Under the pieces are notes generated by a model, which did no database searches, was not told the DNA's origin, and saw only the letters and a program-made list of their open reading frames with translations. A stretch of 64,000 bases of DNA from Patescibacteria group bacterium (GTDB lineage Bacteria; Patescibacteriota; UBA1384; CAJBMM01), in NCBI GenBank assembly GCA_041660565.1, contig JBAZWC010000001.1, positions 302,481-366,480 of the forward strand, written 5' to 3'. Of this stretch, positions 9,419-63,970 are shown piece by piece. How positions within the stretch are numbered: the first letter of the stretch is position 1; the number at the start of each line of letters is the position of its first letter. The translations under genes and the position numbers were made by a program.

Positions 9419-9490
9419 GTCATTCCGGGCTCGACCCGGAATCTATGTAATTCTTTTATAGACTGGATTCCCGCCTTCGCGGGAATGACA
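9419..9490. repeat. hairpin repeat pair: GTCATTCCGGGCTCGACCCGGAATC + TTTATAGACTGGATTCCCGCCTTCGCGGGAATGACA
   Basis: Same units at 16210-16235, 37295-37372, 41704-41730, 62234-62268. Confidence 0.7.
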
Positions 9491-21066: not shown

Positions 21067-21100
21067 GTTTTGTTTATGTGAATTTAATAATTATTATATT

Positions 21101-36173: not shown

Positions 36174-36236
36174 TGTCATTTCGACTCGGGGAGAGTGTCA
36201 ACTCGACCACAGTGGAGAAACCTCAAGAAAGAATCC
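36174..36236. repeat. half copy of MITE-like element (TGTCATTTCGAC...GGAGAAAC..AGAATCC)
   Basis: Aligns to left half of 22372-22497. Confidence 0.6.
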
Positions 36237-37294: not shown

Positions 37295-37372
37295 TGTCAT
37301 CCCGGGCTCGACCCGGGATCCAGACTATAAAAGACTTTATTATATAGATTCCGTGTCAAGCACGGAATGACA
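37295..37372. repeat. hairpin pair TGTCATCCCGGGCTCGACCCGGGATCCAGACTATAAAAG + ATTCCGTGTCAAGCACGGAATGACA; second hairpin encodes the last 9 codons and stop of tsaE
   Basis: Family of 9419-9490; tsaE ends ...CHSVLDTESI* inside hairpin. Confidence 0.65.
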
Positions 37373-37789
37373 TGCTCGTGTTATTGTTTCAAACAATCTT
37401 AAGCTTTCTTCATCCTCACCATGATTCTCGATTAAAACCTGTCGTTTTTGACCAATCCGGCTTAGTGTAAGATGAATATGACCAAAAGATTCGATTACTG
37501 GCTGTTTTTCCGGCCATTCAACAATCGAAATCACATCTTTTGACCCAAGCAACTCGTCTAAACCAATCGATTTTACATCGTCTATTTTTCCGGTACGATA
37601 CAAATCTATATGCGCTAAAATATTTTGATCTGCTAACTGGTACTCGTTTATCATTACAAATGTTGGGCTTGATACGCTTGACTGAACGCCCAATTCTTTT
37701 GCAATCGATTGCGTTAGCGTGGTTTTGCCCGCACCAAGCTCTCCGGTCAAAAAAATCACCTCACCACCAATACAACTCCGTCCTATCAA
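37340..37789 (-). CDS. tsaE: tRNA t6A biosynthesis ATPase TsaE (YjeE)
   Basis: P-loop GELGAGKTT, SPTF motif. Confidence 0.8.
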   Translation of the reverse strand: MIGRSCIGGEVIFLTGELGAGKTTLTQSIAKELGVQSSVSSPTFVMINEYQLADQNILAHIDLYRTGKIDDVKSIGLDELLGSKDVISIVEWPEKQPVIESFGHIHLTLSRIGQKRQVLIENHGEDEESLRLFETITRACHSVLDTESI

Positions 37790-39662: not shown

Positions 39663-40685
39663 TTAAATTATAAGCATGCAATCGCCAAAAGAGAGAAAAC
39701 GATAATTTGATTTTTGGGCGTGATCGTATAAATCAAATAACTTAGTTCGCCCCGTAAGCGCCGAAACCAACATCAGCAGCGTAGATTTTGGCTGATGAAA
39801 GTTAGTCAATAAGCAATCGACCACTTTGAACCGATAGCCCGGGGTAATAAACAAATTTGTCTCCCCAAAATACGGCTGATTTCCGGCTGATTCAAGCGCC
39901 CTGGCCACAGTGGTCCCAACTGCCACCACCCTGCCCCCATTGGCTTTTGTCTGATGTATGAGGTCAATTACCGCCTGAGACACCTCTACCGCCTCTGAGT
40001 GCATTACGTGATCGTTCGTATTTTCCACCCTCACCGGCAAAAACGTGCCCAGCCCAACATGCAAAATCACTTCCGCGGTTTTAACTCCGCCTTGCTTCAG
40101 CTTCTCCAATAACTCCGGTGAAAAGTGCAAACTGGCGGTAGGTGCGGCCACGCTACCCAATATTTTGGCGGTAATGGGTTGATATAACTCGTCTTCAAAA
40201 CCGGCTAGTTGCGGGTTGTGAATGTAAGGTGGCAGAGGCAGGTGACCAAATTCTTCGCAAAACAGGATGAAATCGGGGGATGATAAATTGGTTTGAATAA
40301 TAAACCGCCCCATCCCATCGGTTAATTTATTAATTATTTCACAATGAACATCATCAAATCTTATCTTTTCTCCAATCTCGATGTTTTTCCCCCTAAGTAA
40401 ACACTCAAATTGTCCATCTTTACTCAGTGATTTTAAAATTAACGCTTCGATTTCTTTGCCGTCACTCTGGCGAACTCCCATCAACCGCGCGTGCCTCACT
40501 TTCGAGACGTTAAAGACAAGCAAATCTCCTGAGCGAATAAACGAGGGCAAATCTGCCACCGTTCTATCTAAAATTCGATCTGCTTCTCTGCTATACACCA
40601 GCATTTTTGCTCGCTCACGCGGTCGCACCGGTGCTTGAGCAATTTTATTCTCGGGCAAATTATAATCAAACAGGTCAACTTTCAT
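39663..40685 (-). CDS. queA: S-adenosylmethionine:tRNA ribosyltransferase-isomerase QueA
   Basis: QueA family similarity across length (…LPLPPYI…). Confidence 0.85.
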   Translation of the reverse strand: MKVDLFDYNLPENKIAQAPVRPRERAKMLVYSREADRILDRTVADLPSFIRSGDLLVFNVSKVRHARLMGVRQSDGKEIEALILKSLSKDGQFECLLRGKNIEIGEKIRFDDVHCEIINKLTDGMGRFIIQTNLSSPDFILFCEEFGHLPLPPYIHNPQLAGFEDELYQPITAKILGSVAAPTASLHFSPELLEKLKQGGVKTAEVILHVGLGTFLPVRVENTNDHVMHSEAVEVSQAVIDLIHQTKANGGRVVAVGTTVARALESAGNQPYFGETNLFITPGYRFKVVDCLLTNFHQPKSTLLMLVSALTGRTKLFDLYDHAQKSNYRFLSFGDCMLII

Positions 40686-41395
40686 CTCAAATACACTACC
40701 TGACCTTCTATTAGTTCAATTGGATCTGACGTTGCATTATTTTTCTTGGATACCTGACGCTCAACTCTTTCCGGAATATATTTTATCGGTTTTTGGCTGA
40801 TTTGGTCAAACCACGACTGATCCGTTTCGTCTCTGCCTTTAACCATTGTCATTTCGACCCGTGGAGCTGGCTCGAGCGACCGCGTTGGAGAAATCTGAGA
40901 AAGAATCCTTACAGGTCTTTCTGCGGGTTCGTTCCATTCTCGATTGAGACTGACACTGGAATCAAAGCGCATTAACGGAAAGGTAATCACATTCCCAGCC
41001 ATCATCAAATGCATCACACCAAGATTTACACGTTGATGTAGTTTGGAAGGATACCTAATTGTCATCTTTTCGATCTGTAATTTATCAACCGCAAATCGAA
41101 CTATCTGCCATTTTCTGACTAAATTAATCTCAAATTTGTCCTGATCAAAAATTAGCAATGAATTTAGCCAACGCCAATAATATTGCATAAGATTATAGAG
41201 GTCGAGACACACGAAAGCTAGCGCGATCACAAAAATTATCCCGGCCAAATTCGGGTTTGAAACCAACAGATTGTTCACAACTAGTAATATCAATACAATC
41301 GATGCAATTTTTATAATTGATCTTAGCACGGCCGTTACCAATCCAAGCCAATGTGGATGTAAAGTAATTGTGTTTGAACTAATATTTTTATTCAT
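40682..41395 (-). CDS. hypothetical membrane protein containing an in-frame half-MITE (encodes ...RSLEPAPRVEMTMVKGRDET...)
   Basis: 2 TM N-terminus; repeat at 40847-40908 lies inside ORF. Confidence 0.4.
   Translation of the reverse strand: MNKNISSNTITLHPHWLGLVTAVLRSIIKIASIVLILLVVNNLLVSNPNLAGIIFVIALAFVCLDLYNLMQYYWRWLNSLLIFDQDKFEINLVRKWQIVRFAVDKLQIEKMTIRYPSKLHQRVNLGVMHLMMAGNVITFPLMRFDSSVSLNREWNEPAERPVRILSQISPTRSLEPAPRVEMTMVKGRDETDQSWFDQISQKPIKYIPERVERQVSKKNNATSDPIELIEGQVVYLR
40847..40908. repeat. half copy of MITE-like element inside coding sequence
   Basis: TGTCATTTCGACCC...GGAGAAATCTGAGAAAGAATCC. Confidence 0.6.
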
Positions 41396-41651: not shown

Positions 41652-41703
41652 ACATTATTTATATGTTACCATATTTTTATTTTTTTAGCAATCTATTTTT
41701 CTC

Positions 41704-41824
41704 GTCATTCCCGCGAAGGCGGGAATCCAGCCTATAATAAAATTCATATTTTTCTGGATCCCCGAATATAATGTCGGGACGCTTAGCGCCCCTAAGTCCC
41801 GCTTAGCGGGACGGGGATGACAAA
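41704..41824. repeat. composite repeat: GTCATTCCCGCGAAGGCGGGAATCCAGCCTATAAT + reverse copy of double-hairpin element
   Basis: Matches 9475-9490 and revcomp of 8657-8725. Confidence 0.65.
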
Positions 41825-42710: not shown

Positions 42711-42795
42711 AGTTAGGGGGCTTAGGGAATTTTAGGGAAGTTAGGGGTACCATCGGCCCTCCCAATGCCCCTAATCACCCCACCCCCCCTAACCA
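42711..42795 (+). repeat. TTAGGG/CCCTAA palindromic element E1
   Basis: G-rich arm (ttaggggg cttaggg..ttaggg..ttagggg) then C-rich arm (ccctaa units). Confidence 0.7.
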
Positions 42796-49649: not shown

Positions 49650-49752
49650 GTTAGGGATTTTTAGGGAGTTTAGGGTTGTTAGGGTGGTTCCTTCCCTAAT
49701 TGGTCCCCCGCTCTCCCAATCACTCCAATCTCCCTAATTCCCCCAATTGCCC
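49650..49752 (+). repeat. TTAGGG/CCCTAA palindromic element E3
   Basis: ttagggatttttagggagtttagggttgttagggtggttccttccctaat...ccctaattcccccaa. Confidence 0.75.
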
Positions 49753-49773
49753 TATTTCTGTTATAATGGCACT

Positions 49774-50919
49774 ATGAAAATACTTGTTTGCACCGAAACC
49801 TATCTTCCAACCATTAACGGCGTCGTTAACTCAATTGAACTGTTTAGGCATCAACTTGAAAAAAATGGCCATCAAGTGGATATTGTCGCCCCACACTCTG
49901 CCGCCGAAAGCTTTAAGTCTAGATCTCACGTTTTTCGCCTACCATCGCTACCTCTGATCGGGCAGCCAACGCATCCGGTAGCATGGCCAAGCAAATCCCA
50001 CATCTCAGCCATCATCAGCGAAACCAAACCAGACGTTGTCCACTGTCAAGGTATGTTTGCCTGTGGCTGGCTGGGTCTAAAAGGTGCGCAAAAGGCCAAT
50101 TTGCCACATGTTTTAACTTATCACACTCATCTTGAGGGATATTCGCACTATGCCGGGCCATTATCGTTCTTAGCCAAACCAATTATGCGCTGGTGGACTA
50201 AAAAAATGTGCAACCAATTTGATTTGGTCATCACCCCATCCCCCAGCATGGCTAAGATGCTCAAGAGTTACAAAGTCAAAACCGACATTGTAGCGCTCCC
50301 AACCGGTATTGAGCTAAAGGATTACCGTTTTAATGATAAGAAAAAATTGCGAGCAATGCTTAAATTTAACCCAGATGAGGTTTATATTTTATCCGCCGGG
50401 CGGTTATCTGAAGAAAAAAATGTCAAACAATTATTAATCGATTTTGGGCGCATTCACGTGCGCAATCCTAAAGTCAAATTATTATTAGCAGGTGATGGCC
50501 CCGAGCGCAAAGCGTATGAAACGATAGTAGAAGCTAGAGGATTGCAATCGGTGGTTACGTTTTTGGGCGCACTAAAACACGAAGATCTAATAAATTACTT
50601 TGTTGCCTGTGATATATTTGCCTTTCCATCGCTAACAGACACCCAAGGCATCGTATTAATTGAAGCGATGGCGGCCGGATGTCCCAGCGTGGTGTACGAT
50701 ATGCTAGGCCCGGGCGATATTGTTAAGCACGAGGTAAACGGGTTAAAGGCAAAAGTGGGCACGGATCAGTTTTTCCAACACTTATTTGCGCTTGTTTCAG
50801 ACCAAGATTTAAGAGAAAAAATCAGCATCGGTGGCTTAAGAGACGTTAGAAACTACTCTATCGAAAAAACCGCTGATCAATTGCAACAGATCTACGCTGT
50901 TTTATGTAAGAGGCCATAG
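49774..50919 (+). CDS. glycosyltransferase family 4 (GT-B); leaderless-looking start 5 nt after TATAAT
   Basis: GT1/GT4 C-terminal motif ...GIVLIEAMAAGCPSVV...; start MKILVCTE. Confidence 0.8.
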   Translation: MKILVCTETYLPTINGVVNSIELFRHQLEKNGHQVDIVAPHSAAESFKSRSHVFRLPSLPLIGQPTHPVAWPSKSHISAIISETKPDVVHCQGMFACGWLGLKGAQKANLPHVLTYHTHLEGYSHYAGPLSFLAKPIMRWWTKKMCNQFDLVITPSPSMAKMLKSYKVKTDIVALPTGIELKDYRFNDKKKLRAMLKFNPDEVYILSAGRLSEEKNVKQLLIDFGRIHVRNPKVKLLLAGDGPERKAYETIVEARGLQSVVTFLGALKHEDLINYFVACDIFAFPSLTDTQGIVLIEAMAAGCPSVVYDMLGPGDIVKHEVNGLKAKVGTDQFFQHLFALVSDQDLREKISIGGLRDVRNYSIEKTADQLQQIYAVLCKRP

Positions 50920-50920
50920 G

Positions 50921-51018
50921 GTGTGTTAGGGAGTTTAGGGTTGTTAGGGTGGTTCCTTCCCTAATAGGTTCTACGCTCTCCCAACATCCCTAACGTCCCT
51001 AACTACCCTAACCGTCCT
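50921..51018 (+). repeat. TTAGGG/CCCTAA palindromic element E4 (45-bp core identical to E3)
   Basis: ttagggagtttagggttgttagggtggttccttccctaat shared with E3. Confidence 0.75.
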
Positions 51019-51088: not shown

Positions 51089-51613
51089 ATGGGCGCAACA
51101 TCACCAAGTTGGGACGCAGTAATTGTATTAGTTTACGTTATTGGTGTTGGATATAGTCTAATTTTGCATCGAGAACGAATTGCCGGGCAAATTGCCTCGG
51201 CCTATATTTCATTGGCCGTTACCTCGGTTATCACCACTCCGGTGTATAATTTTTTACATCATAACAGCTTCTTAATGAATCAACTTTGGGTACAAAATGA
51301 CGCCACAACGCAAATGGTTTCGGGTCTGTTGTTTCTTGCTTTAACCATCATTCTTTCCAGCTTTCTGTCGGTGATACCAACCGGGCGAAAATCTGACAGC
51401 CTGTCTATGTTTGAGTCTACTTTGTTTAGCTTTTTGTGGGTAACGTTGTTAATTTCAACAATACTATCATTCCTACCGGTGGACAGATTGGTTTTATTTA
51501 GCAATCAGTCCAAACTCATCACTCTAATTTGGCAATATCACACCGCTTGGTTAATTATCCCGGCGTTTTTGTTAATTTACTCCGGCTTTAGACGCGGGAA
51601 TCTTAATTATTAG
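51089..51613 (+). CDS. hypothetical integral membrane protein
   Basis: ~5 TM helices. Confidence 0.4.
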   Translation: MGATSPSWDAVIVLVYVIGVGYSLILHRERIAGQIASAYISLAVTSVITTPVYNFLHHNSFLMNQLWVQNDATTQMVSGLLFLALTIILSSFLSVIPTGRKSDSLSMFESTLFSFLWVTLLISTILSFLPVDRLVLFSNQSKLITLIWQYHTAWLIIPAFLLIYSGFRRGNLNY

Positions 51614-51714
51614 ACCAATTAGGGAAATTAGGGTCATTTGGGACATTAGGGGTTCTTTCCCTAATAGGTTCTACACTATCCCAATCCCCCTAATCACCCC
51701 AATCTCCCAAATCG
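51612..51714 (+). repeat. TTAGGG/CCCTAA palindromic element E5
   Basis: aattagggaaattagggtcatttgggacattagggg...ccctaat...cccctaatcaccccaatctccc. Confidence 0.75.
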
Positions 51715-52177: not shown

Positions 52178-52864
52178 ATGAGCCTACAACTAAACGCAGA
52201 TACCCGCAAAATAACTGGCAAAAAAGTTAAGTCTATTAGACGTGACGGTCTAATTCCATTGGTAATGTATGGAAAAGGCTTGCCAACTCATCACCTGCAA
52301 TCCAACGCCAAACTGTTCTCCAAGTTATTTAAAGAAAGCGGTACCTCTAGCTTAGTTGATATTGCTATTGAAGACGCCAAACCAATTAAAGCTTTAATCA
52401 AATCGGTCAGCCTTGATCCGGTATCCAATGAAATTCTTCACGCTGACTTGTTACAGGTAAATATGAAAGAAAAAATCCGCACCGAAATTCCAATTGAATT
52501 TGTGGGTGATTCCAGTGTAGTTACCGAGCAAGATGGTAAATTGGTGTTCAACTTAGACGCTCTTGAGATTGAATGTTTGCCAGACGATTTGGTACCAAAC
52601 TTTGAAGTAAATGTTTCATCTCTAACTGAATTTGATCAAGCAATTCACGTATCTGACATAAAAATCCCAGACGGCATGGAAATTCTAACCGATCCGGAAT
52701 TGGTAATTGTAGTTGCGCAGGCTCCGTTAACCGAAGCTGAACTTGAAGCCGAACTAGCAGAGCCAGAAAAGACCGAGGAAGAGGCAGTCGCTGAAATGGC
52801 CGCCGAAGAACCAGCCGCCGAAGGTGAAGAATTGGGGGAAACCAAAGACGATTTGGGTAATTAG
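52178..52864 (+). CDS. rplY: ribosomal protein L25 / general stress protein Ctc with acidic C-terminal tail
   Basis: L25/Ctc fold pattern (…RRDGLIPLVMYGKG…). Confidence 0.8.
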   Translation: MSLQLNADTRKITGKKVKSIRRDGLIPLVMYGKGLPTHHLQSNAKLFSKLFKESGTSSLVDIAIEDAKPIKALIKSVSLDPVSNEILHADLLQVNMKEKIRTEIPIEFVGDSSVVTEQDGKLVFNLDALEIECLPDDLVPNFEVNVSSLTEFDQAIHVSDIKIPDGMEILTDPELVIVVAQAPLTEAELEAELAEPEKTEEEAVAEMAAEEPAAEGEELGETKDDLGN

Positions 52865-52946
52865 GGGCATTTGGGACATTAGGGTTCTTACCCTAATGAG
52901 TACCCCGCACCCCCAATCACCCTAATCTCCCTAATTCCCCAAACGT
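52855..52946 (+). repeat. TTAGGG/CCCTAA palindromic element E6 (overlaps rplY stop)
   Basis: ttaggggcatttgggacattagggttcttaccctaat...ccctaatctccctaattcccc. Confidence 0.75.
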
Positions 52947-54883: not shown

Positions 54884-56359
54884 ATGAGTAACGCAACAGA
54901 CATTTTGCAGCTAATCAAACTTGAAGAAACGCGCCAACAAGAAGGCATGGAGCTAATTCCGTCTGAAAATTACGCGTCTAAGAACATTCGCGGCGCTTTG
55001 GGCTCGGTTTTAACCAATAAATATTCCGAAGGCTATGCTGGCGCACGTTATTACGGTGGCCAAGAGGTCATTGACCAAATTGAAACCAAGGCCATTGAAC
55101 TTGCTCGGCAACTGTTCAAATATCAATTTGTAAACGTGCAACCATATTCCGGCACACCGGCCAATTTAGCGGTTTATAATGCTTTGTTACAACCGGGCGA
55201 TACTATACTTTCGATGGCGCTTGATATGGGCGGCCACCTAAGCCACGGACACAAACTTAGTTTACCGGGAAAACTTTATAATATTGTTAGTTATGGACTA
55301 CATGAAGAAAATTCGAAAAACGAAATACGAAATACAAAACAAATCCAAAATTCAAAAAAAGAAATTCAAAAAAATGGTACTTTTCGTGCTTCGGATTTCG
55401 AATTTAGTGCTTATGATGCCGGACGCATAGATTACAATCAAGTTGCAGAATTAGCCAAAACCCATAAGCCAAAACTGATTGTTGCTGGTGGTAGTGCGTA
55501 TCCTTATATAATAGATTTTAAGAGATTCAGAGAAATTGCCGACAGCGTTGGTGCTATTTTGATGGTAGATATGGCGCATATTGCCGGACTAGTGGCTGGT
55601 GGCGTGCACCCATCACCCTACCCGTATGCGCACGTTGTAACCTCAACCACCCATAAGACAATGCGCGGGCCAAGAGGTGGATTTATTTTGACCGATGATG
55701 AAGAAATGGCAAAAAAAATTAACCGCGCAGTTTTTCCCGGAATTCAAGGCGGCCCGCACGATAATAACATTGCCGGTATTGCCATTTGCTTTGCCGAAGC
55801 CCTAGATCCAGAGTTTAAGGACTATGCCAAACAAGTTATTCTTAACGCAAAAGCCTTAGCAGATACTGTAGGGGCACCGTCCTCGCTACCGCATCGGATG
55901 ACCGGTGGTCAACATGAATTGCCCGAGGTTCCAGCCATGGCGGGCGGACATATGAGTCCGCCCCTACACCCCCTAAAAAGAAATTCCTTCAATTCAAATT
56001 TCAAATTTCAAATTTCAAATTGTCCTCCCTCTAATTGGAACCCAACCACAGAGAATCACCTACTCTTACTAGACGTCACGCCTTTTGGCCTAGGTGGCTT
56101 ACGCGCCCAAGATCTACTAGACAGCGTTGGCATTACTGTAAATAAACAAGTTTTGCCGGGTGATACCAGAAAACCGGCCGACCCATCGGGTATTCGGCTT
56201 GGATCACCGGCAATGACTACCAGAGGATTCAAAGAAGAACAATTTAACCAAACCGGAAAATGGATTATTGACGTATTATCAAATCCGGAAGACCTTAAGT
56301 TGCACCGCGCTATTCACCAAGAGGTAAAAGCACTGTGTAAAAGGTTCCTGGTGCCTTAG
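54884..56359 (+). CDS. glyA: serine hydroxymethyltransferase with two in-frame insertions derived from repeat elements (~38 aa at 55305-55425; ~43 aa at 55912-56045)
   Basis: SHMT signature incl. PLP-Lys region TSTTHKTMRGPRGG; protein ~75 aa longer than typical; inserts carry GAATTTAGTGCTT repeat and hairpin ggcgggcggacatatgagtccgcccc + (ttcaaat)4. Confidence 0.85.
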   Translation: MSNATDILQLIKLEETRQQEGMELIPSENYASKNIRGALGSVLTNKYSEGYAGARYYGGQEVIDQIETKAIELARQLFKYQFVNVQPYSGTPANLAVYNALLQPGDTILSMALDMGGHLSHGHKLSLPGKLYNIVSYGLHEENSKNEIRNTKQIQNSKKEIQKNGTFRASDFEFSAYDAGRIDYNQVAELAKTHKPKLIVAGGSAYPYIIDFKRFREIADSVGAILMVDMAHIAGLVAGGVHPSPYPYAHVVTSTTHKTMRGPRGGFILTDDEEMAKKINRAVFPGIQGGPHDNNIAGIAICFAEALDPEFKDYAKQVILNAKALADTVGAPSSLPHRMTGGQHELPEVPAMAGGHMSPPLHPLKRNSFNSNFKFQISNCPPSNWNPTTENHLLLLDVTPFGLGGLRAQDLLDSVGITVNKQVLPGDTRKPADPSGIRLGSPAMTTRGFKEEQFNQTGKWIIDVLSNPEDLKLHRAIHQEVKALCKRFLVP

Positions 56360-56458
56360 GGGAATTAGGGACATTAGGGTGATTGGGGGGACAAGGTACC
56401 ATTAGGGTTTTGGTTCCCCCAATGTCCCAAATTTCCCTAATGCCCCCAACCGTCTTTC
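56357..56458 (+). repeat. TTAGGG/CCCTAA palindromic element E7 (perfect G4 motif GGGGaattaGGGacattaGGGtgattGGGGGG); overlaps last codons/stop of 56437..56982
   Basis: Direct reading. Confidence 0.75.
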
Positions 56459-56982
56459 CTCTTTTGGTCTTTTCTGGCATTAAAAAGTTTTTCACTATAA
56501 CCGCCTTCAGTTTTAAACTTTTCTTCTAGGGAAAGAAGCTGTTTATCTAATAAAAAGGTGGTTAAACTTACAAAGGTTACTAACATATTAGCCGCTAGAG
56601 TTGGGTCATTCGGAAAATTAGGTGTATTCAAGGTGTTTTCAGTTACCCAAATTGCCCTAAACTCTCTAAAAACCCTTACATTTTGGTCGTCCTTGCTAAA
56701 CAAAGGCAAATTTCTCTGTCTCAGAAAATCTTGGAAGTCTAACAACAGCTCCTCTTGGGACGCTTTTGCAACGCCCACCAGTTTTATATAACTCTTTAAT
56801 GACTTTTCCATATAACCTTCAGCTATGTTTTGCCTACCGCTGCGCGCCGCTTGCACCATTTGTTCAACCAGCCTACTGTTTTCTCTGCTATTAACAAACT
56901 GTTTGCAAAATTTGACTGTTAAATCATATACAACAGTCGCCATCATAAAGGAAGCTAGTGTTTTATAACCAGGCTGGGCCAT
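56437..56982 (-). CDS. four-helix-bundle protein of the 23S rRNA intervening-sequence protein family
   Basis: Motif SGRQNIAEGYMEKS...ASQEEL matches NIAEG...S.EL signature. Confidence 0.55.
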   Translation of the reverse strand: MAQPGYKTLASFMMATVVYDLTVKFCKQFVNSRENSRLVEQMVQAARSGRQNIAEGYMEKSLKSYIKLVGVAKASQEELLLDFQDFLRQRNLPLFSKDDQNVRVFREFRAIWVTENTLNTPNFPNDPTLAANMLVTFVSLTTFLLDKQLLSLEEKFKTEGGYSEKLFNARKDQKRKDGWGH

Positions 56983-56991: not shown

Positions 56992-57112
56992 CTTAGGGGA
57001 ATTAGTAGGCCAATTGGGGGAATTAGGGTCATTTGGGTCATTGGGGGTTCCACCCCTAATTGGTTTATTGTTCCCCCAATCTCCCTAATCTCCCCAAGCC
57101 CCCTAACCGTTT
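56992..57112 (+). repeat. TTAGGG/CCCTAA palindromic element E8 (abuts stop of giant gene)
   Basis: ttaggggaattagtaggccaattgggggaattagggtcatttgggtcattggggg...ccctaat...ccctaaccg. Confidence 0.75.
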
Positions 57113-57115: not shown

Positions 57116-60100
57116 TTATTTAACTCTAACGGTTCCGCCGCCGTTTACACGCACCGAACCAGAGTTTACCCGCACCCCAGAGTAGTTTGCCGCTTTAGTA
57201 CTAGCGGTGTCATCTACCGGAAAACCGGCCAGACCGGCAGGCCAGGCACCGGCATCAGTGCCAACAATGGCAAGACCCCCTAAGCCCAAACCTAAGCTAC
57301 TTACGCTATTTGAAGGCAAACTGGAATTTGCCGTGGTGTAAAAAACAATTTGTTTTTGCGTAGCTAACGAAATACTGGTTACCCCACTTGCCGTGCCGAC
57401 CCAAAGGGCAGATTGGTTCTTAACCGGTGAGCCGGTGGACCAGGTGGGATCGTCTGAGGCAACGGAAGAGTTGGCACCAAGAGTGCCGTTGTACCCTAAG
57501 CCAGAGGAATCAGCCGCAACTTGCCCGGAGCCTTCATTAAGCTTCCACCAACCGAGAATATTGGCGGATGGATTATCAGTCCTACCAAGCCCGCCGTTAT
57601 AGAGGGCAGCTACTTCGGCACCAGTTATTGCCCTTGAGTAGATACGCACATCATCAATTGATCCATTAATAAATGCAGAAGATCGGCCAATTTCTAAGGT
57701 ACCATTAGCCGTATTCAAAGTTTCAGTTGCAGTCCCGGAAACCATTCCATCCATATAAATTGTTTGGCTGCTTGCGCCACTAACAAGTACAATATGATGC
57801 CAAGCACCATCATCGACACTATTCGTCGTGGTGGCAGAACCGGCATCGGTACCATCAACAGCGCAGTTCATTTTATGTGCAGTCACACCAGCAATTTTAC
57901 ATATTCGGTTGGCAGCCCACCTAAGGGCTCCGCCACTGTTTGTGGTAGTTTTAATCCAGAATGATTCAGTTATCGCCGATTGACCTGGAATTGATCCGGT
58001 GATGACATAGTCAGATCCATCAAAGGTTAAATCTTCCCCCAAATCCCCTGTTTTCATCAACCCCACCGACGTAGCACTGGCCGAGGTGCCACCGATAGCA
58101 GGAGAAACGCGCATGGGATCGGTAGTGGTAACGGTAGCGTCAGCACCCAGAGTACCGTTGTTGGCGTTACCGGAAGAATCGTACACGGTCTGCCCATTTA
58201 TCCCATTAGCCCCACCGTACCGTTCGTCCAGGTGCCAAAGGCCAATGGTGTTTGCATCTGTGGTAAAAGGAACAACAGTGGGAGTAAAATATTTCGTATT
58301 AAGAACTGTCCCCGAATAACGTATTGAATTAGAAATACGCACTTCATCAATTGGACCGTTAAACCTTCCGGCTGAGGGACTACCACTTCCAATATATAGC
58401 GTTTCAGATGAGGTGTATTTGATATTTGCATTCATGTTACAATTGGCACGTAAAGTTCCATCCACAAATATCCTATATTTAAGATTGGATTGATCAATAG
58501 TACCGGCAACATGATGCCATACGCCATCGGCCTGTGAGCTATTAGTAGGACATTCTTCAGTTACCCCATACTGATTCACAAAAAATAAGGTGACTGTGCC
58601 ATTTGAAGACCATCTGTTCATCCGAAAGCCGTACGCACCATAGTTTAATGGGTAAATAGAACTACCAGATGTTGTATTAAACCACATCTCTATAGTAAAA
58701 ACGGTTGGTCTCAAACCGGCATTACCTGCAACCGGAACATAATCATCAGTTCCGTCAAACATAAGCGCGTTACCAAATGACTTGCTGTTGTAGTTTGATG
58801 TTCCGGTGGAGCCAGTGTTAACGTAATGCTCCACAAAACCACTAGCTTGGGTAGAGTGTTCCTGGATGGTTTCAACACCTAAGTTCGTACCAAGAGCAAC
58901 AGTGTTGCTGGTATTATCTGCAAGAGATGTACCGGTGGTGACAGATATGGAATTAATGGTATTGGAACGCAGAGCAGGGGTGGAAGCGGTGGAATAGGTA
59001 ACATCTGCTGTTCCTACTTGGTCGGCGGTGTCTGCATTTACAGCTGTGTAAACATCTAACCCGGCGTGAGTGGTATTAGCACCGTATACCGTGCCAGCAT
59101 TGGTCATAAATACTTTGGTATAGGTGTCTGAGGCGGTTGGGGCATATTTGTACATTGGTGAATCGGTGGGTGCATTGTTGTTAAGACCTATTCCGGTTAA
59201 GTTATTCAAGACATTTAAGTCAGAGGCGGTGGCAAGCGCAACGTATTGTTTTGGAGGAGCTGTGCCTATTACAGTAGGTGAAATATCATTAACGGTAGTG
59301 GAGTTAAGAGCAGTTCCACCAGCTGCGGGATACGCCGAGGCGGCACCACGATTAGCTAGAGTAGATTGATAAATTGAATTGCCAGATGAAGTAAATCGTA
59401 AAGCGGTATCATCATCTAACCGAATATCGGTTAAACCATCAGCGCTGGCAACGTAAATACGACCGTTTAGAGCTTTTACCTTGAGTGTATTATTTGAGCC
59501 GATTAAATTATTACTGGCTTTGGCAAAGCGCGCCCACAGTTTGTTAGTTGATGCGTCTATGATGTCGAGGCCACCGTTGTTGGCCACCAAATTAGTTTTT
59601 GAAGGATAACTACGGAGTTTACCACGGGTTGTACCAAAGGATTCGATAGCCAAGGCGTTGATGCGGTAGGTGTCGTAGGTGGAATAGTTTCCTTGAGGGT
59701 TCCAACGTACGTAGATTCCGGTGGCACCAAGCTGTTGGAGGGAGGAAGAGATCTGTTGTCGGGTGGACCAGGCGTCTAAGGTGGGAGTGGGGCCACCGGT
59801 AGAACCTCGGTACTGGTAGAAGACCGGAGTTTCTTGCTCCACGATGGCGGAGTAAGCGGCTACCGTGGGCTCTGTTGTGGCGTGGAGGAGAGAGTTGTTG
59901 GTGACCCAGTTGGAGGTTGAGTTGAAGCCAAAGTTAGTAAGGGTACCATTGTTGCCTGAGCCGGATGAGTCTACGGCGGTGGTTCCGGCAGCGGTGGTAT
60001 CGTCTAGTTTCCACCAACCAACTAGGCCGGAGTTGGAGACATAGGGAGTGTTGGTGTAAAGAGCTGATGCTTCTGTAGCGCTAATAGATCGACTGTATAT

Positions 60101-63100
60101 TCGGACATCATCAAGCTGACCGTTTAGGTAATTTTGATAATTTGCTGGAACACCTCTCACCCCAAGGGAAAGGTAATTAACCGTATCGACACCAAATGTT
60201 GTGGTCTGAGTTAGCGATCCTTGGTTTAAGGAGCCATCAATATAGATACTAATCGTATTATTGCCAATTACACTTGTATCGGTAGTAATTACGGCTGATA
60301 CCTGGTGCCAGTTACCATCATTCAAGCTCGAACTACTTGAAGATCGCGACATACTATTTCCACTCCCTGTTCCATCTTTTGTACTCACAATTATGATCCC
60401 GGCGTTGATTTTTACCCCCCACCCACCAGTGGAGGCCAAATAGTCTCCTTTAGCCACCAGTGTTTGTAGGGAGGCACTTGCAGTTTTAAACCACGTAGAA
60501 ACGGTAAAAGTCGTGTTTGCAAAGCGATAGGGTGTTTCGTTTGTTACGGCGATATAATCATCCGATCCATCAAACTTCAGACCATACGAATTATAGGAAA
60601 GCGCACTGGATTTTTCGTTGAGGTTGCCATAGTAAAGGTAGTAATCAGCATCAGTACTAGAGGCAGCAATAGGAGCGATGGTCTTGAACTGGGTTTGGTT
60701 GATAGAGTCTACCTTGCCACCGTTGGTGACCCAGGTTCCGGCGTGACCGGTCATATCGCCGTTGTTAGTACCAGTTTGATCTATTACGGTGTTGCCGGTA
60801 CCATCGTCCATATGCCAGAGTCCGGCGGTGTACTGATCTTTGGCAAAAGGCGTAGTTTGCGGGGTAAAGTTACTTCTATACCGTACTCTACTACTGACTC
60901 TCACTTCGTCAATCTGACCGTTCCAAAACCTACTGCCAGAACTCACTTTTTGACGACCGATTATCAAAGCTCCGGTTGAAGCAGCACCTGCCGTAAACAA
61001 ACTGGAACTACCTTGATAAACACCATCAATATATAATTGTAATTTTCCATTCGTGTACGTGCATCCTAAATGCGCCCACGTTCCAATTGATACGGTACTA
61101 CCGTAGGCACTAACACTAGCATCTGAACTATTTCTCATCGCGCAGTAGTACTTTGCTGTGCCGCTTACATCAGCTATACCAAATTGATACGGTGGGTTTG
61201 ACGGTCCTCCACCCTCATCTTTACTGACGGCGGTCTGTAAAGCACCTGATCCGGGTGTCGGAACGGTGTTAGTTTTTAACCAAGCTTCGTATGTTCGATC
61301 TCCAGTTGTGTTAAGGGATGCGTTGTTGGGAATAGTAACGTAGCTACTGGTGCCATTAAAACTAACCGTGTGGCCGTGGGGGAGGAAGCGGGGAACTTCC
61401 TGGGTGGTGGAGATGGCACCGTCGGTGGACCAGGTGGGGGAGTTGGTAAATACACCGTTGTTTTGGTTACCAGACGAATCGGCGGCGATTGTACCGGAGC
61501 CTTCATCGAGGTGCCAGAGGCCAACAGTGTTTGCATCAGAAACAAAAGGAGTTGTGCGAGGTATGAATGTTCCATTGTATCGAGCAATGTTTGAGATTCG
61601 AAATTCATCCTCAATACCACCGAAGCCATAGCTAGTGCCTAGGTTCATCAAGAGTAGGTCTGTTGCTGAGGGCAGATATGCAGAGTAGGTAGCTGAACCA
61701 TCAAGTTGTCCATTTAAGTACATTTTAAGGGTATTGGCCGAACCATTTCCAGAAATTGCTAAGTGATACCAAATGTTAGGGTCGATTATGTGAGATCCCG
61801 ATATATTACGATAACTAGTACCGGTTCCAATGTGACAGAACATTTTCTGTGAATAAAAATTACAGCCAAACCCATCATGAGAGGATACCGGATTTCCTTT
61901 GGAAAATAGGTATGTACCGAAATCGGAATCAGTTTTTTTGAACCACAATTCAAAGGTATAGTTGGCTGAAAGAGAGGCATCAACATTAGCTGGAATTGTA
62001 ATTGATTCGTTTGAGTTACTAGTTGTAGAAACGCCACTGGTGGTAAGTGCGGGTTGGTAGACGATGCGGGTGTCGTTGCCATCTGAACGCATTTGGTTGT
62101 TATCCATCAAAGTACCACGGTTGGTGGTTGACTCCACGCCGTAGCCCGGGGCGAGGATGGAAGCGACGTTATTGGTAAGATTGAGTTTTTGGCGGAATTG
62201 GTAGCCTGGGAGGGCCCAATTGGAAGATGTGTTCATAGACTGGATTCCCGCCTGCGCGGGAATGACACCATCGGTCCAGAGGGGTCCGTTGGTGGTGCCA
62301 TCGGCAGCTGGGGAGTTGGTACTTCCATTCATGAGGGTGCCGGTGTTGCCGTTACCGGAGGAGTCTACAGGGGTAGTGCCGGTAGCATCGTCAAGGTGCC
62401 AGAGTCCTACCGTTGACGCATCGGTGGCAAAGCGGCGGGAGGGGGTGAAGTTGGAGGTATAGCGGGCAGTGTTAGAGATACGGACTTCGTCAATTTGACC
62501 GGTCCAAAAATAATTATCTCCGTTGGGATTACTTGCCAGTTTAGTATTATCAATGCTTATTGCCGATCCTGAACCAGCAGTAAACGCATCTAATGCGCCA
62601 TTTATGTATAGGCTTAAACCAGCGCTATTATACACACCTGCAACATGGTACCATTGATTGACGCTAATAGTGGTGGCGCCTTGTGCAATGGTACCACCTT
62701 GGACAAATCGAAATTTTGTGCCATTTCTATCAAGGTACATTTTCTCTGATCCTGCCAGACTTGAATCAATAATTTTAATATACGCTCCACCTACTGTGCT
62801 AGTACGAACCCAAGCCTCAAAGGTTATCGTACTACTATTCAAAGATAGGCTTTGTGTCGTATAGTCATTACTCCCATCAAACTGCAGGCCACTGGACGGG
62901 ACGGTTTTAACCTCGTAAGACTTTTTGGAGGTGGTGGAGGATTGGGCACCAAGGGTTAAGTTGCCTGCTCCGGTTTTGCCACCTGGGGTATTGAAGCTTG
63001 GGGTATCGGGGTTATCCCCCACAAACCCATCCATAATGGCGTTAGAGCCGGAGACAAAGATAGGACCGTTGGCTGAGCCATCGGCAGCGGGAGAGTTGGA

Positions 63101-63970
63101 AGCGCCGTTCATCAACGTTCCAGTATTAGCGTATTGGGATGAGTCTTTGACATAGCAAGGGTTGGCGGCTTCACAGGAGCCTTCATCAAAGTGCCAGAGA
63201 CCAACGGTATTGGCATCTTCCGATAACCGACGAGAAGGAGTGAAGTTTGTGGTGTATCGTGCGGTATTGCTAATTCTAGCTTCATCATAATATGCACTAG
63301 TTGAAGAACTACCGGAGCTATTTGCCGCAAACGTCATTGCTCCTGTGCCAGTATTAGTTGGGCAATTTACAATAGACCTGGTTGAACCAGCTTGACTGCC
63401 GTTTTTATACAACTTTAAGGTCTTATCATTCTGATTGATAACATAAGCTAAATGCTGCCAAGCATTGGCTGTAGCGGAGGCTTGGGCGTTATCAGCGCAA
63501 GCTGTACTCCCAGAATAAAAAGTAATGCTAAACATGCCCGCTGCGTACAAGACATACAGTTTATTGTTTGATCCATTATTCTTAATAAAAACATAACCGG
63601 TTGTATTAATTGGTTTGATCCACATTTCCACCGTATAACTACCACTTCCCGGTCTAAGTGATTCAGAGTCAGGTATCGTAACATAATCATCACTCCCATC
63701 AAACTTAAGGGCGCTGGACTTTCGGGTGATGCCGTTCTGCCAGTTTGGATCAATACCTAACTGTTGTTGAGTGTCGGGACTGGAGTCCTGGGATGTATCA
63801 TAAAGGGTAGTGTCGTTGACGGTGTTGGAAGCTAGGTGGGTATTGCCATCGGCATCGGTAGAGGAGGAGGTGTAGGCACCCGATACCGGGGAACTAAGGT
63901 TGGGAATGGTGCCAATTATGATAGCAAAGACGAGGAGAACGGCAGTGGCGGCCGTCAAACCCCGCGGCAA
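57116..63970 (-). CDS. giant (2284 aa) surface protein: N-terminal signal/TM + at least 8 LamG-like (concanavalin A-like lectin, Laminin_G_3-type) repeats, each L(K/Q)FDG(S/T)DDY...DE(V/A)RISN(T/S)ARY...(L/V)GLWH(L/F)DEG
   Basis: Repeated motifs LKFDGSDDYVTIPD, LQFDGSNDY, VSFNGTSSYVTIPN, LMFDGTDDYVPVAG, LTFDGSDYVITGS and DEVRISNTARY / DDVRIYSRAI(T/S) ends; antisense ORFs judged artifacts. Confidence 0.8.
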   Translation of the reverse strand: MPRGLTAATAVLLVFAIIIGTIPNLSSPVSGAYTSSSTDADGNTHLASNTVNDTTLYDTSQDSSPDTQQQLGIDPNWQNGITRKSSALKFDGSDDYVTIPDSESLRPGSGSYTVEMWIKPINTTGYVFIKNNGSNNKLYVLYAAGMFSITFYSGSTACADNAQASATANAWQHLAYVINQNDKTLKLYKNGSQAGSTRSIVNCPTNTGTGAMTFAANSSGSSSTSAYYDEARISNTARYTTNFTPSRRLSEDANTVGLWHFDEGSCEAANPCYVKDSSQYANTGTLMNGASNSPAADGSANGPIFVSGSNAIMDGFVGDNPDTPSFNTPGGKTGAGNLTLGAQSSTTSKKSYEVKTVPSSGLQFDGSNDYTTQSLSLNSSTITFEAWVRTSTVGGAYIKIIDSSLAGSEKMYLDRNGTKFRFVQGGTIAQGATTISVNQWYHVAGVYNSAGLSLYINGALDAFTAGSGSAISIDNTKLASNPNGDNYFWTGQIDEVRISNTARYTSNFTPSRRFATDASTVGLWHLDDATGTTPVDSSGNGNTGTLMNGSTNSPAADGTTNGPLWTDGVIPAQAGIQSMNTSSNWALPGYQFRQKLNLTNNVASILAPGYGVESTTNRGTLMDNNQMRSDGNDTRIVYQPALTTSGVSTTSNSNESITIPANVDASLSANYTFELWFKKTDSDFGTYLFSKGNPVSSHDGFGCNFYSQKMFCHIGTGTSYRNISGSHIIDPNIWYHLAISGNGSANTLKMYLNGQLDGSATYSAYLPSATDLLLMNLGTSYGFGGIEDEFRISNIARYNGTFIPRTTPFVSDANTVGLWHLDEGSGTIAADSSGNQNNGVFTNSPTWSTDGAISTTQEVPRFLPHGHTVSFNGTSSYVTIPNNASLNTTGDRTYEAWLKTNTVPTPGSGALQTAVSKDEGGGPSNPPYQFGIADVSGTAKYYCAMRNSSDASVSAYGSTVSIGTWAHLGCTYTNGKLQLYIDGVYQGSSSLFTAGAASTGALIIGRQKVSSGSRFWNGQIDEVRVSSRVRYRSNFTPQTTPFAKDQYTAGLWHMDDGTGNTVIDQTGTNNGDMTGHAGTWVTNGGKVDSINQTQFKTIAPIAASSTDADYYLYYGNLNEKSSALSYNSYGLKFDGSDDYIAVTNETPYRFANTTFTVSTWFKTASASLQTLVAKGDYLASTGGWGVKINAGIIIVSTKDGTGSGNSMSRSSSSSSLNDGNWHQVSAVITTDTSVIGNNTISIYIDGSLNQGSLTQTTTFGVDTVNYLSLGVRGVPANYQNYLNGQLDDVRIYSRSISATEASALYTNTPYVSNSGLVGWWKLDDTTAAGTTAVDSSGSGNNGTLTNFGFNSTSNWVTNNSLLHATTEPTVAAYSAIVEQETPVFYQYRGSTGGPTPTLDAWSTRQQISSSLQQLGATGIYVRWNPQGNYSTYDTYRINALAIESFGTTRGKLRSYPSKTNLVANNGGLDIIDASTNKLWARFAKASNNLIGSNNTLKVKALNGRIYVASADGLTDIRLDDDTALRFTSSGNSIYQSTLANRGAASAYPAAGGTALNSTTVNDISPTVIGTAPPKQYVALATASDLNVLNNLTGIGLNNNAPTDSPMYKYAPTASDTYTKVFMTNAGTVYGANTTHAGLDVYTAVNADTADQVGTADVTYSTASTPALRSNTINSISVTTGTSLADNTSNTVALGTNLGVETIQEHSTQASGFVEHYVNTGSTGTSNYNSKSFGNALMFDGTDDYVPVAGNAGLRPTVFTIEMWFNTTSGSSIYPLNYGAYGFRMNRWSSNGTVTLFFVNQYGVTEECPTNSSQADGVWHHVAGTIDQSNLKYRIFVDGTLRANCNMNANIKYTSSETLYIGSGSPSAGRFNGPIDEVRISNSIRYSGTVLNTKYFTPTVVPFTTDANTIGLWHLDERYGGANGINGQTVYDSSGNANNGTLGADATVTTTDPMRVSPAIGGTSASATSVGLMKTGDLGEDLTFDGSDYVITGSIPGQSAITESFWIKTTTNSGGALRWAANRICKIAGVTAHKMNCAVDGTDAGSATTTNSVDDGAWHHIVLVSGASSQTIYMDGMVSGTATETLNTANGTLEIGRSSAFINGSIDDVRIYSRAITGAEVAALYNGGLGRTDNPSANILGWWKLNEGSGQVAADSSGLGYNGTLGANSSVASDDPTWSTGSPVKNQSALWVGTASGVTSISLATQKQIVFYTTANSSLPSNSVSSLGLGLGGLAIVGTDAGAWPAGLAGFPVDDTASTKAANYSGVRVNSGSVRVNGGGTVRVK
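62234..62268. repeat. hairpin element CATAGACTGGATTCCCGCCTGCGCGGGAATGACAC inserted in frame in giant LamG gene (encodes GVIPAQAGIQSM)
   Basis: Matches 9462-9490 family. Confidence 0.7.

What the first reader, a model, noticed from the sequence alone, without database searches (positions are those of the whole stretch)
57116..63970. 2284-aa multi-LamG (concanavalin-A-like lectin) surface protein with an in-frame palindromic insertion
After a signal/TM N-terminus there are at least eight divergent LamG_3-type repeats. Each starts L(K/Q/M)FDG(S/T)DDY and ends DE(V)RISN(T)ARY or DDVRIYSRAI(S/T)..E(A/V)AALY, with recurring (L/V)GLWH(L/F)DEG linkers. The hairpin repeat at 62234-62268 is translated in frame as GVIPAQAGIQSM between two domains. 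Giant lectin-like adhesins are candidate host-attachment factors for reduced-genome symbionts.
Basis: partly seen in the sequence, partly recalled or inferred. Interest (0 to 1): 0.6.

Follow-up and report, generated by a model that had tools for sequence, protein, structure and literature searches.

The report
Giant lectin gene carrying REP hairpin
A 2,284-residue secreted protein of a small-genome Patescibacteria (CPR) bacterium is built from seven lectin-like LamG domains, and a 33-base copy of a widespread hairpin repeat (the type cut by Ssn nucleases in Neisseria) is read in frame in one of its floppy linkers; both are new examples of known kinds.

Summary
The ORF is on the minus strand (57116-63970). 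Its frame stays open to the window edge. It has seven LamG_3 units, not eight or more.

It belongs to a conserved, fixed-architecture family of about 2,200-2,430 aa. Its more distant orthologues (about 35% identity) come from Candidatus Berkelbacteria MAGs. NCBI already lists this protein as MFA6082132.1, "LamG domain-containing protein".

New anatomy:
- LamG3 and LamG4 are nested inside a split DUF2341-like domain.
- A 350-aa beta-rich domain with no Pfam family lies between LamG5 and LamG6. It occurs in about 1,000 protein clusters.

The in-frame hairpin is real. It matches 27 of 28 positions of the published NTS consensus (CGTCATTCCCGCGMAVGCGGGAATCYRG). NTS is the Neisseria dRS3 / CGTC-tagged REP class, the ssDNA target of the GIY-YIG nuclease SsnA. 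Two intergenic copies lie in the window, and the 27-nt core occurs in at least 120 metagenome stretches.

In the protein the hairpin codes VIPAQAGIQSM, in a linker that is hypervariable in length and has low model confidence. No orthologue has this peptide.

No empty-site allele and no Ssn gene could be found in the 64 kb. An adhesin role is plausible but untested. Verdict: new member of known kinds, modest interest.

The parts
57116..63970 (-). Whole ORF, 2284 aa plus stop. The frame is open up to 64000. Equals NCBI MFA6082132.1.
63875..63970 (-). N-terminal signal/anchor segment, aa 1-32 (MPRG-LTAATAVLLVFAIIIGTI-PNLSSPVSGA).
   Evidence: Sequence. Orthologues whose N-terminus is included carry the same hydrophobic segment about 10 aa before a conserved AYT(T/S)S. 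No signal-peptide predictor was run.
63713..63874 (-). Conserved N-terminal segment, aa 33-86 (YTSSSTDADGNTHLASNTVND...QQQLGIDPNW). No Pfam family.
63248..63712 (-). LamG_3 unit 1, aa about 87-241.
62453..62890 (-). LamG_3 unit 2, aa about 361-506.
62234..62267 (-). In-frame hairpin element. The NTS/SRM 28-mer TGTCATTCCCGCGCAGGCGGGAATCCAG lies at 62267-62240, followed by the locally shared tail TCTAT. It codes VIPAQAGIQSM (aa 569-579).
   Evidence: NTS consensus from PMC11893778.
62036..62224 (-). DUF2341-like domain, N-terminal half, aa about 583-645 (WALPGYQFRQKLNL...DGNDTRIVYQP).
61571..62008 (-). LamG_3 unit 3, aa about 655-800. Its start motif is degenerate. Nested in the DUF2341-like domain.
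60872..61369 (-). LamG_3 unit 4, aa about 868-1033. This is the best Pfam stretch (872-1030). Nested in the DUF2341-like domain.
60596..60748 (-). DUF2341-like domain, C-terminal half, aa about 1075-1125 (WVTNGGKVDSINQTQFKTIAPIAASSTDADYYLYYGN).
60056..60583 (-). LamG_3 unit 5, aa about 1130-1305. Ends with DDVRIYSRSISATEASALY. Best PDB sequence match is S-layer domain protein 4qvs.
58781..59833 (-). Beta-rich domain with no Pfam family, aa 1380-1730. Possibly beta-propeller-like.
58301..58768 (-). LamG_3 unit 6, aa about 1735-1890.
57596..58033 (-). LamG_3 unit 7, aa about 1980-2125. Ends with DDVRIYSRAITGAEVAALY.
57119..57418 (-). Conserved C-terminal beta-rich module (ALWVGT...GLAIVGTDAGAW) plus a basic tail of repeats: xVRVNSGSVRVNGGGTVRVK.
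57005..57106 (.). Intergenic inverted array directly 3' of the stop: (TTAGGGnnn)n followed by (nnnCCCTAA)n. Probably a terminator or insulator hairpin. One of seven such arrays between 42.7 and 57.1 kb.
41703..41730 (+). Intergenic NTS copy, CGTCATTCCCGCGAAGGCGGGAATCCAG. Matches the consensus 28/28.
9463..9490 (-). Intergenic NTS copy, 27/28. Paired head-to-head with a second hairpin unit at 9418-9450.

Best explanation
The ORF encodes a secreted or membrane-anchored giant multi-lectin protein of a Patescibacteria (CPR) bacterium related to Berkelbacteria. It belongs to a conserved family with one fixed architecture:
- signal/anchor segment
- conserved N-terminal segment
- LamG1, LamG2
- DUF2341-like domain split by nested LamG3 and LamG4
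- LamG5
- a 350-aa beta-rich domain
- LamG6, LamG7
- a C-terminal beta-rich module with a basic tail

No catalytic domain was detected. The most likely role (inferred) is multivalent binding of glycans or other surface polymers on a partner cell or substrate.

The hairpin is a 33-nt copy of a CGTC-tagged REP of the NTS/SRM (Neisseria dRS3) class. That class is otherwise intergenic in this genome. The copy landed in the linker after LamG2, which is variable in length and probably disordered. It survives for three reasons: 33 nt keeps the frame, the frame used has no stop, and the frame yields a bland peptide (VIPAQAGIQSM) in a tolerant spot. At the protein level it is most likely a neutral passenger. 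At the DNA level it remains an intact potential ssDNA hairpin site for an Ssn-type GIY-YIG nuclease.

Shown: the ORF, the domains, the family, the element's identity, and its location in a variable, low-confidence linker.
Inferred: export, the adhesive role, the insertion event, and neutrality.
For: ORF and domains:
- seven PF13385 stretches, E 6.9e-135.
- AlphaFold models have mean pLDDT 70.8 and 62.7. Foldseek PDB hits are laminin LG4-5, neurexin LNS, PAPP-A and pentraxin, with E down to 1e-12.
- A profile against PDB sequences hits only ConA-like domains.

Family:
- 26 full-length or partial orthologues at 30-54% identity share the same layout, and invariant residues occur in every unit.
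- The genome scan names orthologue-bearing MAGs as Candidatus Berkelbacteria.
- Neighbouring genes are housekeeping.

Split DUF2341:
- aa 575-650 joined to aa 1070-1132 aligns colinearly with contiguous DUF2341 regions of other proteins. L028 gives 37% identity and E 4e-17. L046 gives E 1e-10.

Hairpin identity:
- 27/28 match to the NTS consensus, and a match to the degenerate SRM pattern. The window has 4 SRM hits against 0.1 in shuffles.
- Two near-identical intergenic copies.
- The 27-nt core occurs in at least 120 metagenome stretches with GC 0.32-0.71 and unrelated flanks.
- A GIY-YIG gene lies next to one such copy, in L093.

Tolerant site:
- Orthologues have 6-25 unrelated residues there, and none has VIPAQAGIQ.
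- Model residues 1-31, covering the peptide, have pLDDT about 27-30.

Precedent:
- Intragenic in-frame CGTC REPs are known as RPE-4 and RPE-6 in Rickettsia conorii (PMC3733652).
Against: - No empty-site allele exists. The closest orthologue is only 54% identical and just 12 nt shorter at the site, so the event looks like an insertion plus replacement, or the ancestral linker was simply different.
- The stem is perfect and only one consensus position differs. That fits either a recent arrival or selection to keep the hairpin, so it does not fit 'neutral' cleanly.
- No Ssn/GIY-YIG gene is present in the 64 kb.
- None of the repeat families occurs in the related loci L001-L003 or L047.
- Export and the adhesive role rest on sequence features and analogy only.
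- Both structure models are of moderate confidence.
- The 350-aa domain could be catalytic.
Confidence: 0.7

Rival explanations
1. The hairpin is kept inside this gene because it works there. As in Neisseria, NTS sites cluster around surface-antigen genes and SsnA cuts incoming ssDNA next to them. The site would shorten or redirect recombination tracts of transforming DNA within the surface-lectin gene. That would promote or restrict its diversification.
For: The stem is perfect and 27 of 28 consensus positions are kept. Published NTS biology covers SsnA cleavage, a 5-fold transformation effect and enrichment near membrane-protein genes (PMC11893778). The gene encodes a surface protein whose linkers vary among orthologues.
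Against: There is only one copy in 6.9 kb, with no flanking pair. No Ssn gene lies in the window. No strain data show variation. The other copies sit next to ordinary housekeeping or tRNA genes.
Confidence: 0.12
2. The protein is mainly an extracellular polysaccharide-active enzyme. A propeller-like catalytic core would be decorated with lectin/CBM-like LamG modules, as in sialidases or GH43 arabinanases. It would not be an adhesin.
For: Foldseek lists lectin-flanked propeller enzymes: Vibrio cholerae neuraminidase, NanB/NanC and GH43 AbnA, with E about 1e-6 to 1e-7. The 350-aa domain shows 4-strand groups in the model. Its homologues give sub-threshold Kelch, NHL and beta-propeller hints.
Against: Those matches have TM 0.14-0.24 and rmsd above 20 A, and the LamG parts explain them. 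No glycoside-hydrolase or lyase family hits any family member. A profile of the domain finds no PDB sequence.
Confidence: 0.13
3. The palindrome-coded peptide is not an insertion. It would be ancestral linker sequence or a chance resemblance.
For: The net length difference from the closest orthologue is only 4 residues.
Against: It shares 33 nt at 97% identity with an intergenic copy, where chance expects 0.03 copies per window. It matches a published 28-nt consensus found across phyla. All 22 aligned orthologues lack it.
Confidence: 0.02
4. The gene is a decaying pseudogene or a misassembly, and the repeat marks the join.
For: Repeats are classic misassembly points. The ORF touches the window edge.
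Against: The 6.85-kb frame is intact and colinear with 2200-2430-aa orthologues on both sides of the hairpin. The JGI and NCBI records of a 516-kb contig carry the same sequence.
Confidence: 0.03

Closest known systems
LamG_3 / concanavalin-A-like giant surface proteins of Patescibacteria (annotated 'LamG domain-containing protein' or 'DUF2341 domain-containing protein')
   Same: Repeated PF13385 domains, an N-terminal signal/anchor, very large size, CPR hosts and a presumed attachment role (PMC12911398).
   Different: This family has one fixed layout of about 2,300 aa. Two LamG units are nested inside a DUF2341-like domain, and it has an unannotated 350-aa domain and a conserved basic C-terminal tail. 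Other CPR LamG proteins match it over only 10-30% of its length.
NTS / SRM hairpins, the ssDNA targets of the GIY-YIG nuclease SsnA (Neisseria meningitidis; PMC11893778)
   Same: The sequence is the same: CGTCATTCCCGCGMAVGCGGGAATCYRG is matched 27/28 in the gene and 28/28 at 41703. The hairpin is the same, the copies are dispersed, and some are paired head-to-head.
   Different: The host is a CPR bacterium, a group the paper does not mention. One copy is translated inside a conserved gene. No ssnA gene lies in the 64 kb examined. Cleavage is untested.
CGTC-tagged REPs, including the intragenic Rickettsia conorii RPE-4 and RPE-6 (Di Nocera et al. 2013, PMC3733652; Ogata et al. RPE work cited there)
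   Same: A short CGTC-class palindromic repeat is inserted in frame in a gene that stays intact, adding about 11 residues. Most copies are intergenic and lie close to 3' ends. The tsaE 3' end here behaves the same way.
   Different: The phylum is new: the paper lists Proteobacteria, Chlorobi, Bacteroidetes, Spirochaetes and Thermotogae. The first base of the tag is T rather than C in the genic copy. It is a single unit, whereas more than half of the published intragenic inserts are dimers or groups.
Lectin-decorated beta-propeller enzymes (Vibrio cholerae neuraminidase, pneumococcal NanB)
   Same: LamG-like lectin modules are interleaved with another beta-rich domain by domain insertion.
   Different: There is no sequence or confident structural match to a sialidase or GH propeller, and no catalytic motif was identified.

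Membership tests
Laminin_G_3 (Pfam PF13385, concanavalin A-like lectin/glucanase superfamily) | Profile HMM score above the curated gathering threshold | tested here: met
   445.5 bits against 27.6, seven stretches.
Laminin_G_3 (Pfam PF13385, concanavalin A-like lectin/glucanase superfamily) | LamG/LNS beta-sandwich fold | tested here: met
   AlphaFold models of aa 556-1135 and 1345-2284. Foldseek PDB hits are laminin LG4-5, neurexin LNS, PAPP-A and pentraxins, E 1e-12 to 1e-7.
Laminin_G_3 (Pfam PF13385, concanavalin A-like lectin/glucanase superfamily) | Ligand (glycan, Ca2+) binding at the sandwich rim | not testable with these tools
   No binding-site analysis or experiment was possible.
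DUF2341 (Pfam PF10102) | Profile HMM score above the gathering threshold | tested here: not met
   Neither half nor the joined halves gave a Pfam hit at E up to 10.
DUF2341 (Pfam PF10102) | Homology to regions of other proteins that carry PF10102 | tested here: met
   The joined halves align colinearly to L028 (37% identity, E 4e-17) and L046 (E 1e-10). PF10102 is called in L028 and L027 right after the matched N-part.
NTS / Ssn-related motif (SRM) repeats | Match to the 28-nt NTS consensus CGTCATTCCCGCGMAVGCGGGAATCYRG with at most one mismatch, the paper's own search rule | tested here: met
   Genic copy 27/28, 41703-41730 28/28, 9463-9490 27/28.
NTS / Ssn-related motif (SRM) repeats | Match to the degenerate SRM pattern, and enrichment over shuffled sequence | tested here: met
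   4 hits in 64 kb against a mean of 0.1 in 100 dinucleotide shuffles.
NTS / Ssn-related motif (SRM) repeats | Forms a hairpin as single-stranded DNA | tested here: met
   8-bp stem and 4-nt loop, -8.9 to -9.9 kcal/mol, z -2.3 to -4.1.
NTS / Ssn-related motif (SRM) repeats | An ssnA (cd10448 GIY-YIG) gene in the same genome, often flanked by the repeats | tested here: inconclusive
   None was found in the 64-kb window by regex, by Pfam on small ORFs, or by tblastn (best E 0.16).
NTS / Ssn-related motif (SRM) repeats | Bound and cut by the cognate Ssn nuclease | not testable with these tools
   Needs biochemistry.
Protein-coding palindromic elements (Rickettsia RPE-4/RPE-6 = intragenic CGTC REPs) | A dispersed palindromic repeat present in frame inside an otherwise intact, conserved ORF | tested here: met
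Protein-coding palindromic elements (Rickettsia RPE-4/RPE-6 = intragenic CGTC REPs) | CGTC tetranucleotide tag at one end | tested here: inconclusive
   The copy at 41703 starts with CGTC. The genic copy and the copy at 9463-9490 start with TGTC.
Protein-coding palindromic elements (Rickettsia RPE-4/RPE-6 = intragenic CGTC REPs) | Insertion shown by comparison with an orthologue or strain that lacks it (empty site) | tested here: inconclusive
   All 22 orthologues lack the peptide. They are at most 54% identical and the linker cannot be aligned, so no clean empty site exists.

The most novel reading that the evidence does not exclude
This CPR genome is being colonised, Rickettsia-style, by hairpin repeats that end up translated. 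The cases seen are the NTS in the giant lectin, an SRM-like hairpin supplying the last 10 codons of tsaE, and a 97-nt palindrome plus a second insert inside SHMT. The NTS/Ssn ssDNA-nuclease system, so far characterised in Neisseria and Wolbachia, would operate in competent, host-dependent Patescibacteria. There the genic hairpin would act as a cut site that shapes recombination of incoming DNA within a surface-attachment gene.
Probability: 0.15. Interest if true: 0.6.

Novelty: new member of a known kind. Interest (0 to 1): 0.35.

Why it matters
Giant lectin-like proteins are among the few candidates for how CPR bacteria hold on to partner cells. This work defines one conserved family with a fixed layout, a nested LamG-in-DUF2341 architecture, and a widespread unannotated 350-aa domain. 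That gives concrete targets for structural and binding studies.

The hairpin result links a CPR genome to the recently described NTS/Ssn system and to the older CGTC-REP/RPE literature. It extends both to a new phylum. It also shows that translated hairpin repeats are not confined to Rickettsia-type endosymbionts.

For annotators it is a caution. Peptides such as VIPAQAGIQ, SFPRRRES and WIPAFAGMT in proteins or small 'hypothetical' ORFs are translated REP hairpins.

Tried and rejected
- Pfam on the non-LamG segments (N-terminus, both DUF2341-like halves and their fusion, aa 1330-1740, C-terminus) gave nothing significant.
- Searches of the PDB with the sequence and with a profile of the 350-aa domain gave nothing.
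- The hairpin motif was searched in related loci, including three Berkelbacteria contigs and the contig of the closest orthologue. No copies were found.
- Attempts to fetch the source contig beyond the window failed or returned only a 3.9-kb Logan contig. The true 5' end and the rest of the genome, including a possible ssnA, stayed out of reach.
- The search for an Ssn/GIY-YIG gene in the window was negative.
- A database search with an Ssn-like protein showed a huge, highly conserved family. At least 4,490 hits passed, about 80% identical across Nitrospirota, Chloroflexi, Acidobacteriota and Proteobacteria. No CPR name appeared among the top 120, so it says nothing about CPR.
- Promoter and terminator scans inside the ORF gave no more than chance.
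- GTAG-REP/RAYT membership was rejected, because the element has no GTAG tag.
Full report
**Observation**

A single ORF runs on the minus strand from 63970 (TTG) to 57116 and encodes 2284 aa. The frame has no stop between 63970 and the window edge at 64000, so the start is not fixed by the window. NCBI's annotation of the same 516-kb contig uses this TTG (MFA6082132.1, 'LamG domain-containing protein [Patescibacteria group bacterium]', 2284 aa). JGI uses the next TTG (2280 aa).

Pfam gives Laminin_G_3 with seven stretches, E 6.9e-135. A regex count finds seven domain ends of the type D[ED]xR(I/V) and seven G(L/W)W(H/K) linkers.

The hairpin ATTCCCGC-GCAG-GCGGGAAT is at 62244-62263. It is translated as VIPAQAGIQSM (aa 569-579).

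**Organism and family**

The neighbours are housekeeping genes: SHMT, ThrRS, L25, FtsH, MurJ and LepA.

The protein database holds the identical protein plus 26 full-length or partial relatives at 30-54% identity. Nearly all the full-length ones are 2200-2430 aa, and some genomes carry two paralogues. A 23-sequence alignment keeps invariant residues in all seven LamG units and in the non-LamG parts.

A scan of species-representative genomes names the orthologue-bearing MAGs Candidatus Berkelbacteria. Other CPR LamG proteins match only 10-30% of the length.

Every orthologue whose N-terminus is included has a hydrophobic segment about 10 residues before a conserved (A/G)xYT(T/S)S. That fits a signal peptide or anchor, but no predictor was run.

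**Architecture**

Two AlphaFold models were built: aa 556-1135 (pLDDT 70.8) and aa 1345-2284 (pLDDT 62.7). Both match laminin LG4-5, neurexin LNS, PAPP-A and pentraxins. A family profile hits only ConA-like chains in the PDB; the best is an S-layer domain protein, 4qvs.

Two non-LamG stretches, aa 583-645 and 1075-1125, matched DUF2341-type proteins separately in the genome scan. When joined, they align colinearly with contiguous DUF2341 regions. L028 gives 37% identity and E 4e-17; L046 gives E 1e-10. PF10102 is called in L028 and L027. Pfam does not call the query itself. LamG3 and LamG4 are therefore nested inside a DUF2341-like domain.

A further 350-aa beta-rich stretch (aa 1380-1730) has no Pfam or PDB relative. 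Its profile nevertheless finds 984 clusters among 1.84 billion representatives (E ≤ 0.001). These include stand-alone proteins of about 360 aa and other giants. Only sub-threshold Kelch, NHL and propeller hints appear. Groups of four strands in the model suggest a propeller, but this is not established. The idea that the conserved C-terminal module completes it has no sequence support.

**The hairpin**

The motif has three copies in the window against 0.03 expected. The genic copy shares 33 nt at 97% identity with the copy at 9458-9490, and 32 nt at 94% identity with the copy at 41704-41735. Both of those are intergenic.

A full-text search for the sequence led to Nat Commun 2025, PMC11893778. 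That paper defines the Neisseria Transformation Sequence, CGTCATTCCCGCGMAVGCGGGAATCYRG, which contains the dRS3 repeat. It shows that NTS is the ssDNA hairpin bound and cut by the GIY-YIG nuclease SsnA, and that NTS-like 'SRM' repeats and ssnA co-occur widely.

- The genic copy matches 27/28.
- The copy at 41703 matches 28/28.
- The paper's degenerate SRM pattern hits the window 4 times against 0.1 in shuffles.
- All copies fold as an 8-bp stem with a 4-nt loop as ssDNA.

Di Nocera et al. 2013 (PMC3733652) had classed dRS3 as a CGTC-tagged REP. They equated such REPs with Rickettsia conorii RPE-4 and RPE-6, and listed intragenic, in-frame copies. Their five phyla do not include CPR.

Those contigs have GC 0.32-0.71 and unrelated flanks. 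One copy (L093) abuts a 96-aa GIY-YIG gene.

**Why it is tolerated**

The site is the linker after LamG2. In 22 orthologues it holds 6-25 unrelated residues, and none has VIPAQAGIQ. In the model, the first 31 residues, which include the peptide, have pLDDT about 27-30. Thirty-three nucleotides keep the frame. From the sequence, five of the six frames of the element are open, and the frame used gives small neutral residues.

A clean empty site could not be shown. The nearest orthologue gene is 54% identical, cannot be aligned in the linker, and is only 12 nt shorter. No near-identical strain sequence exists in the databases.

**Limits on the Ssn link**

No GIY-YIG gene lies in the 64 kb. The rest of the contig could not be fetched. 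Related Berkelbacteria loci carry none of these repeats. An Ssn-like query finds a huge family that is about 80% conserved across phyla. No CPR name appears among the top hits, which settles nothing.

**Function**

No catalytic family is detected in any member. Multivalent binding to surface glycans or polymers is the most economical reading. It matches what the literature already supposes for Patescibacteria concanavalin-like proteins (PMC12911398). It remains an inference. A lectin-decorated enzyme is the main rival.

**Context in the genome**

The window is full of hairpin families with TGTCAT... heads. It also has 9-bp-period TTAGGG/CCCTAA inverted arrays in spacers, one of them directly 3' of this gene.

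Two further translated repeats were seen. An SRM-like hairpin supplies the last 10 codons and the stop of tsaE. SHMT aligns to solved SHMTs in three colinear pieces, leaving two in-frame inserts. The first insert coincides with a 24-nt-arm inverted repeat. No paper in the held library describes REP-type or translated palindromes in CPR.

**Verdict**

The finding is real and mostly correctly described. The protein is already annotated generically and belongs to a known kind. The hairpin is a known element (NTS / CGTC-REP) in a new host and in a genic, translated position, for which Rickettsia gives the precedent. Interest is modest (0.35). It would rise if the complete genome shows an Ssn gene and many translated hairpins.

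Noticed in passing
window 37340-37372 (minus strand), tsaE ORF 37340-37789: The last 10 codons and the stop of tsaE (CHSVLDTESI*) are encoded by an SRM-like hairpin, TGTCATTCCGTGCTTGACACGGAATCTATATAA. A second hairpin lies just downstream at 37295-37327. The TsaE Pfam domain ends at aa 112 of 149.
   Followed up: partly
window 54884-56359 (+), SHMT; inserts at about 55310-55414 and 55874-56047: SHMT aligns to solved SHMT (8ssy) in three colinear pieces. This leaves two in-frame inserts of about 35 and 58 aa. The first coincides with an inverted repeat (arms 55309-55332 and 55382-55405, 83% complementary) and has short similarity to intergenic repeats at 34112-34146 and 24528.
   Followed up: partly
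window 42713-42792, 49652-49755, 50917-51011, 51610-51711, 52852-52943, 56347-56449, 57005-57106: Intergenic arrays of 9-bp-period units (TTAGGGnnn) x3-5, each followed by the inverted array (nnnCCCTAA) x3-5, form long hairpins between genes. The one 3' of the LamG gene folds at -46.6 kcal/mol as RNA (z -2.0). Similar AATTGGnnn / CCAATnnn arrays lie at 29108, 32845, 33628, 34069, 36894 and 54850.
   Followed up: partly
window 17120-17276, 22372-22497, 24028-24150, 36174-36247, 40847-40920: A second hairpin family, TGTCATTTCGACC...GGAGAAATCT, is about 70 nt long and often occurs in inverted pairs. The copy at 40847-40920 lies inside ORF 40682-41395 (237 aa, no Pfam hit). That could be another genic insertion or a spurious ORF.
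   Followed up: no
window 8655-8728, 21099-21150, 41751-41824, 3106-3133: A third family, TTTGTCATCCCCGCCCCGCTAAGCGGGGC...CTTAGCGTCCCGAC, has 74-nt arms that are 91% complementary between distant copies. It sits next to NTS copies at 41.7 kb and beside the Fic/DOC gene at 8740-9201.
   Followed up: no
window 9323-9496 (+): This spurious 57-aa ORF has a C-terminus, ...VIPGSTRNLCNSFIDWIPAFAGMTL*, that is simply two translated hairpins. It is an example of the 'WIPAFAGMT / VIPAKAGIQ / SFPRRRES' peptides that litter hypothetical-protein databases.
   Followed up: yes
LamG protein aa about 2265-2284 (window 57119-57178) and orthologues: The extreme C-terminus is a conserved basic repeat (S/G)G(T/S)(V/I)R(V/I/F)K, present 2-3 times. 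It might be an anchoring or sorting signal. No known family matches it.
   Followed up: no
L093 96-122 and 127-417; L071 1672-2049: In unrelated metagenome contigs the same 27-nt hairpin directly abuts a 96-aa GIY-YIG gene (PF01541, E 1e-13). This reproduces the published NTS-ssnA association. Homologues of this protein are about 80% identical across Nitrospirota, Chloroflexi, Acidobacteriota and Proteobacteria, which suggests horizontal spread.
   Followed up: partly
L047 1585-8205: The closest orthologue, P0002, is called starting inside LamG1 (MEAWVKVSAF...). Its N-terminus is therefore either miscalled or disrupted. The contig showed none of the window's repeat families.
   Followed up: no
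window 56437-56982 (-): The gene immediately downstream of the LamG gene encodes a 23S rRNA-intervening-sequence-type four-helix protein (PF05635, E 7.6e-9).
   Followed up: no
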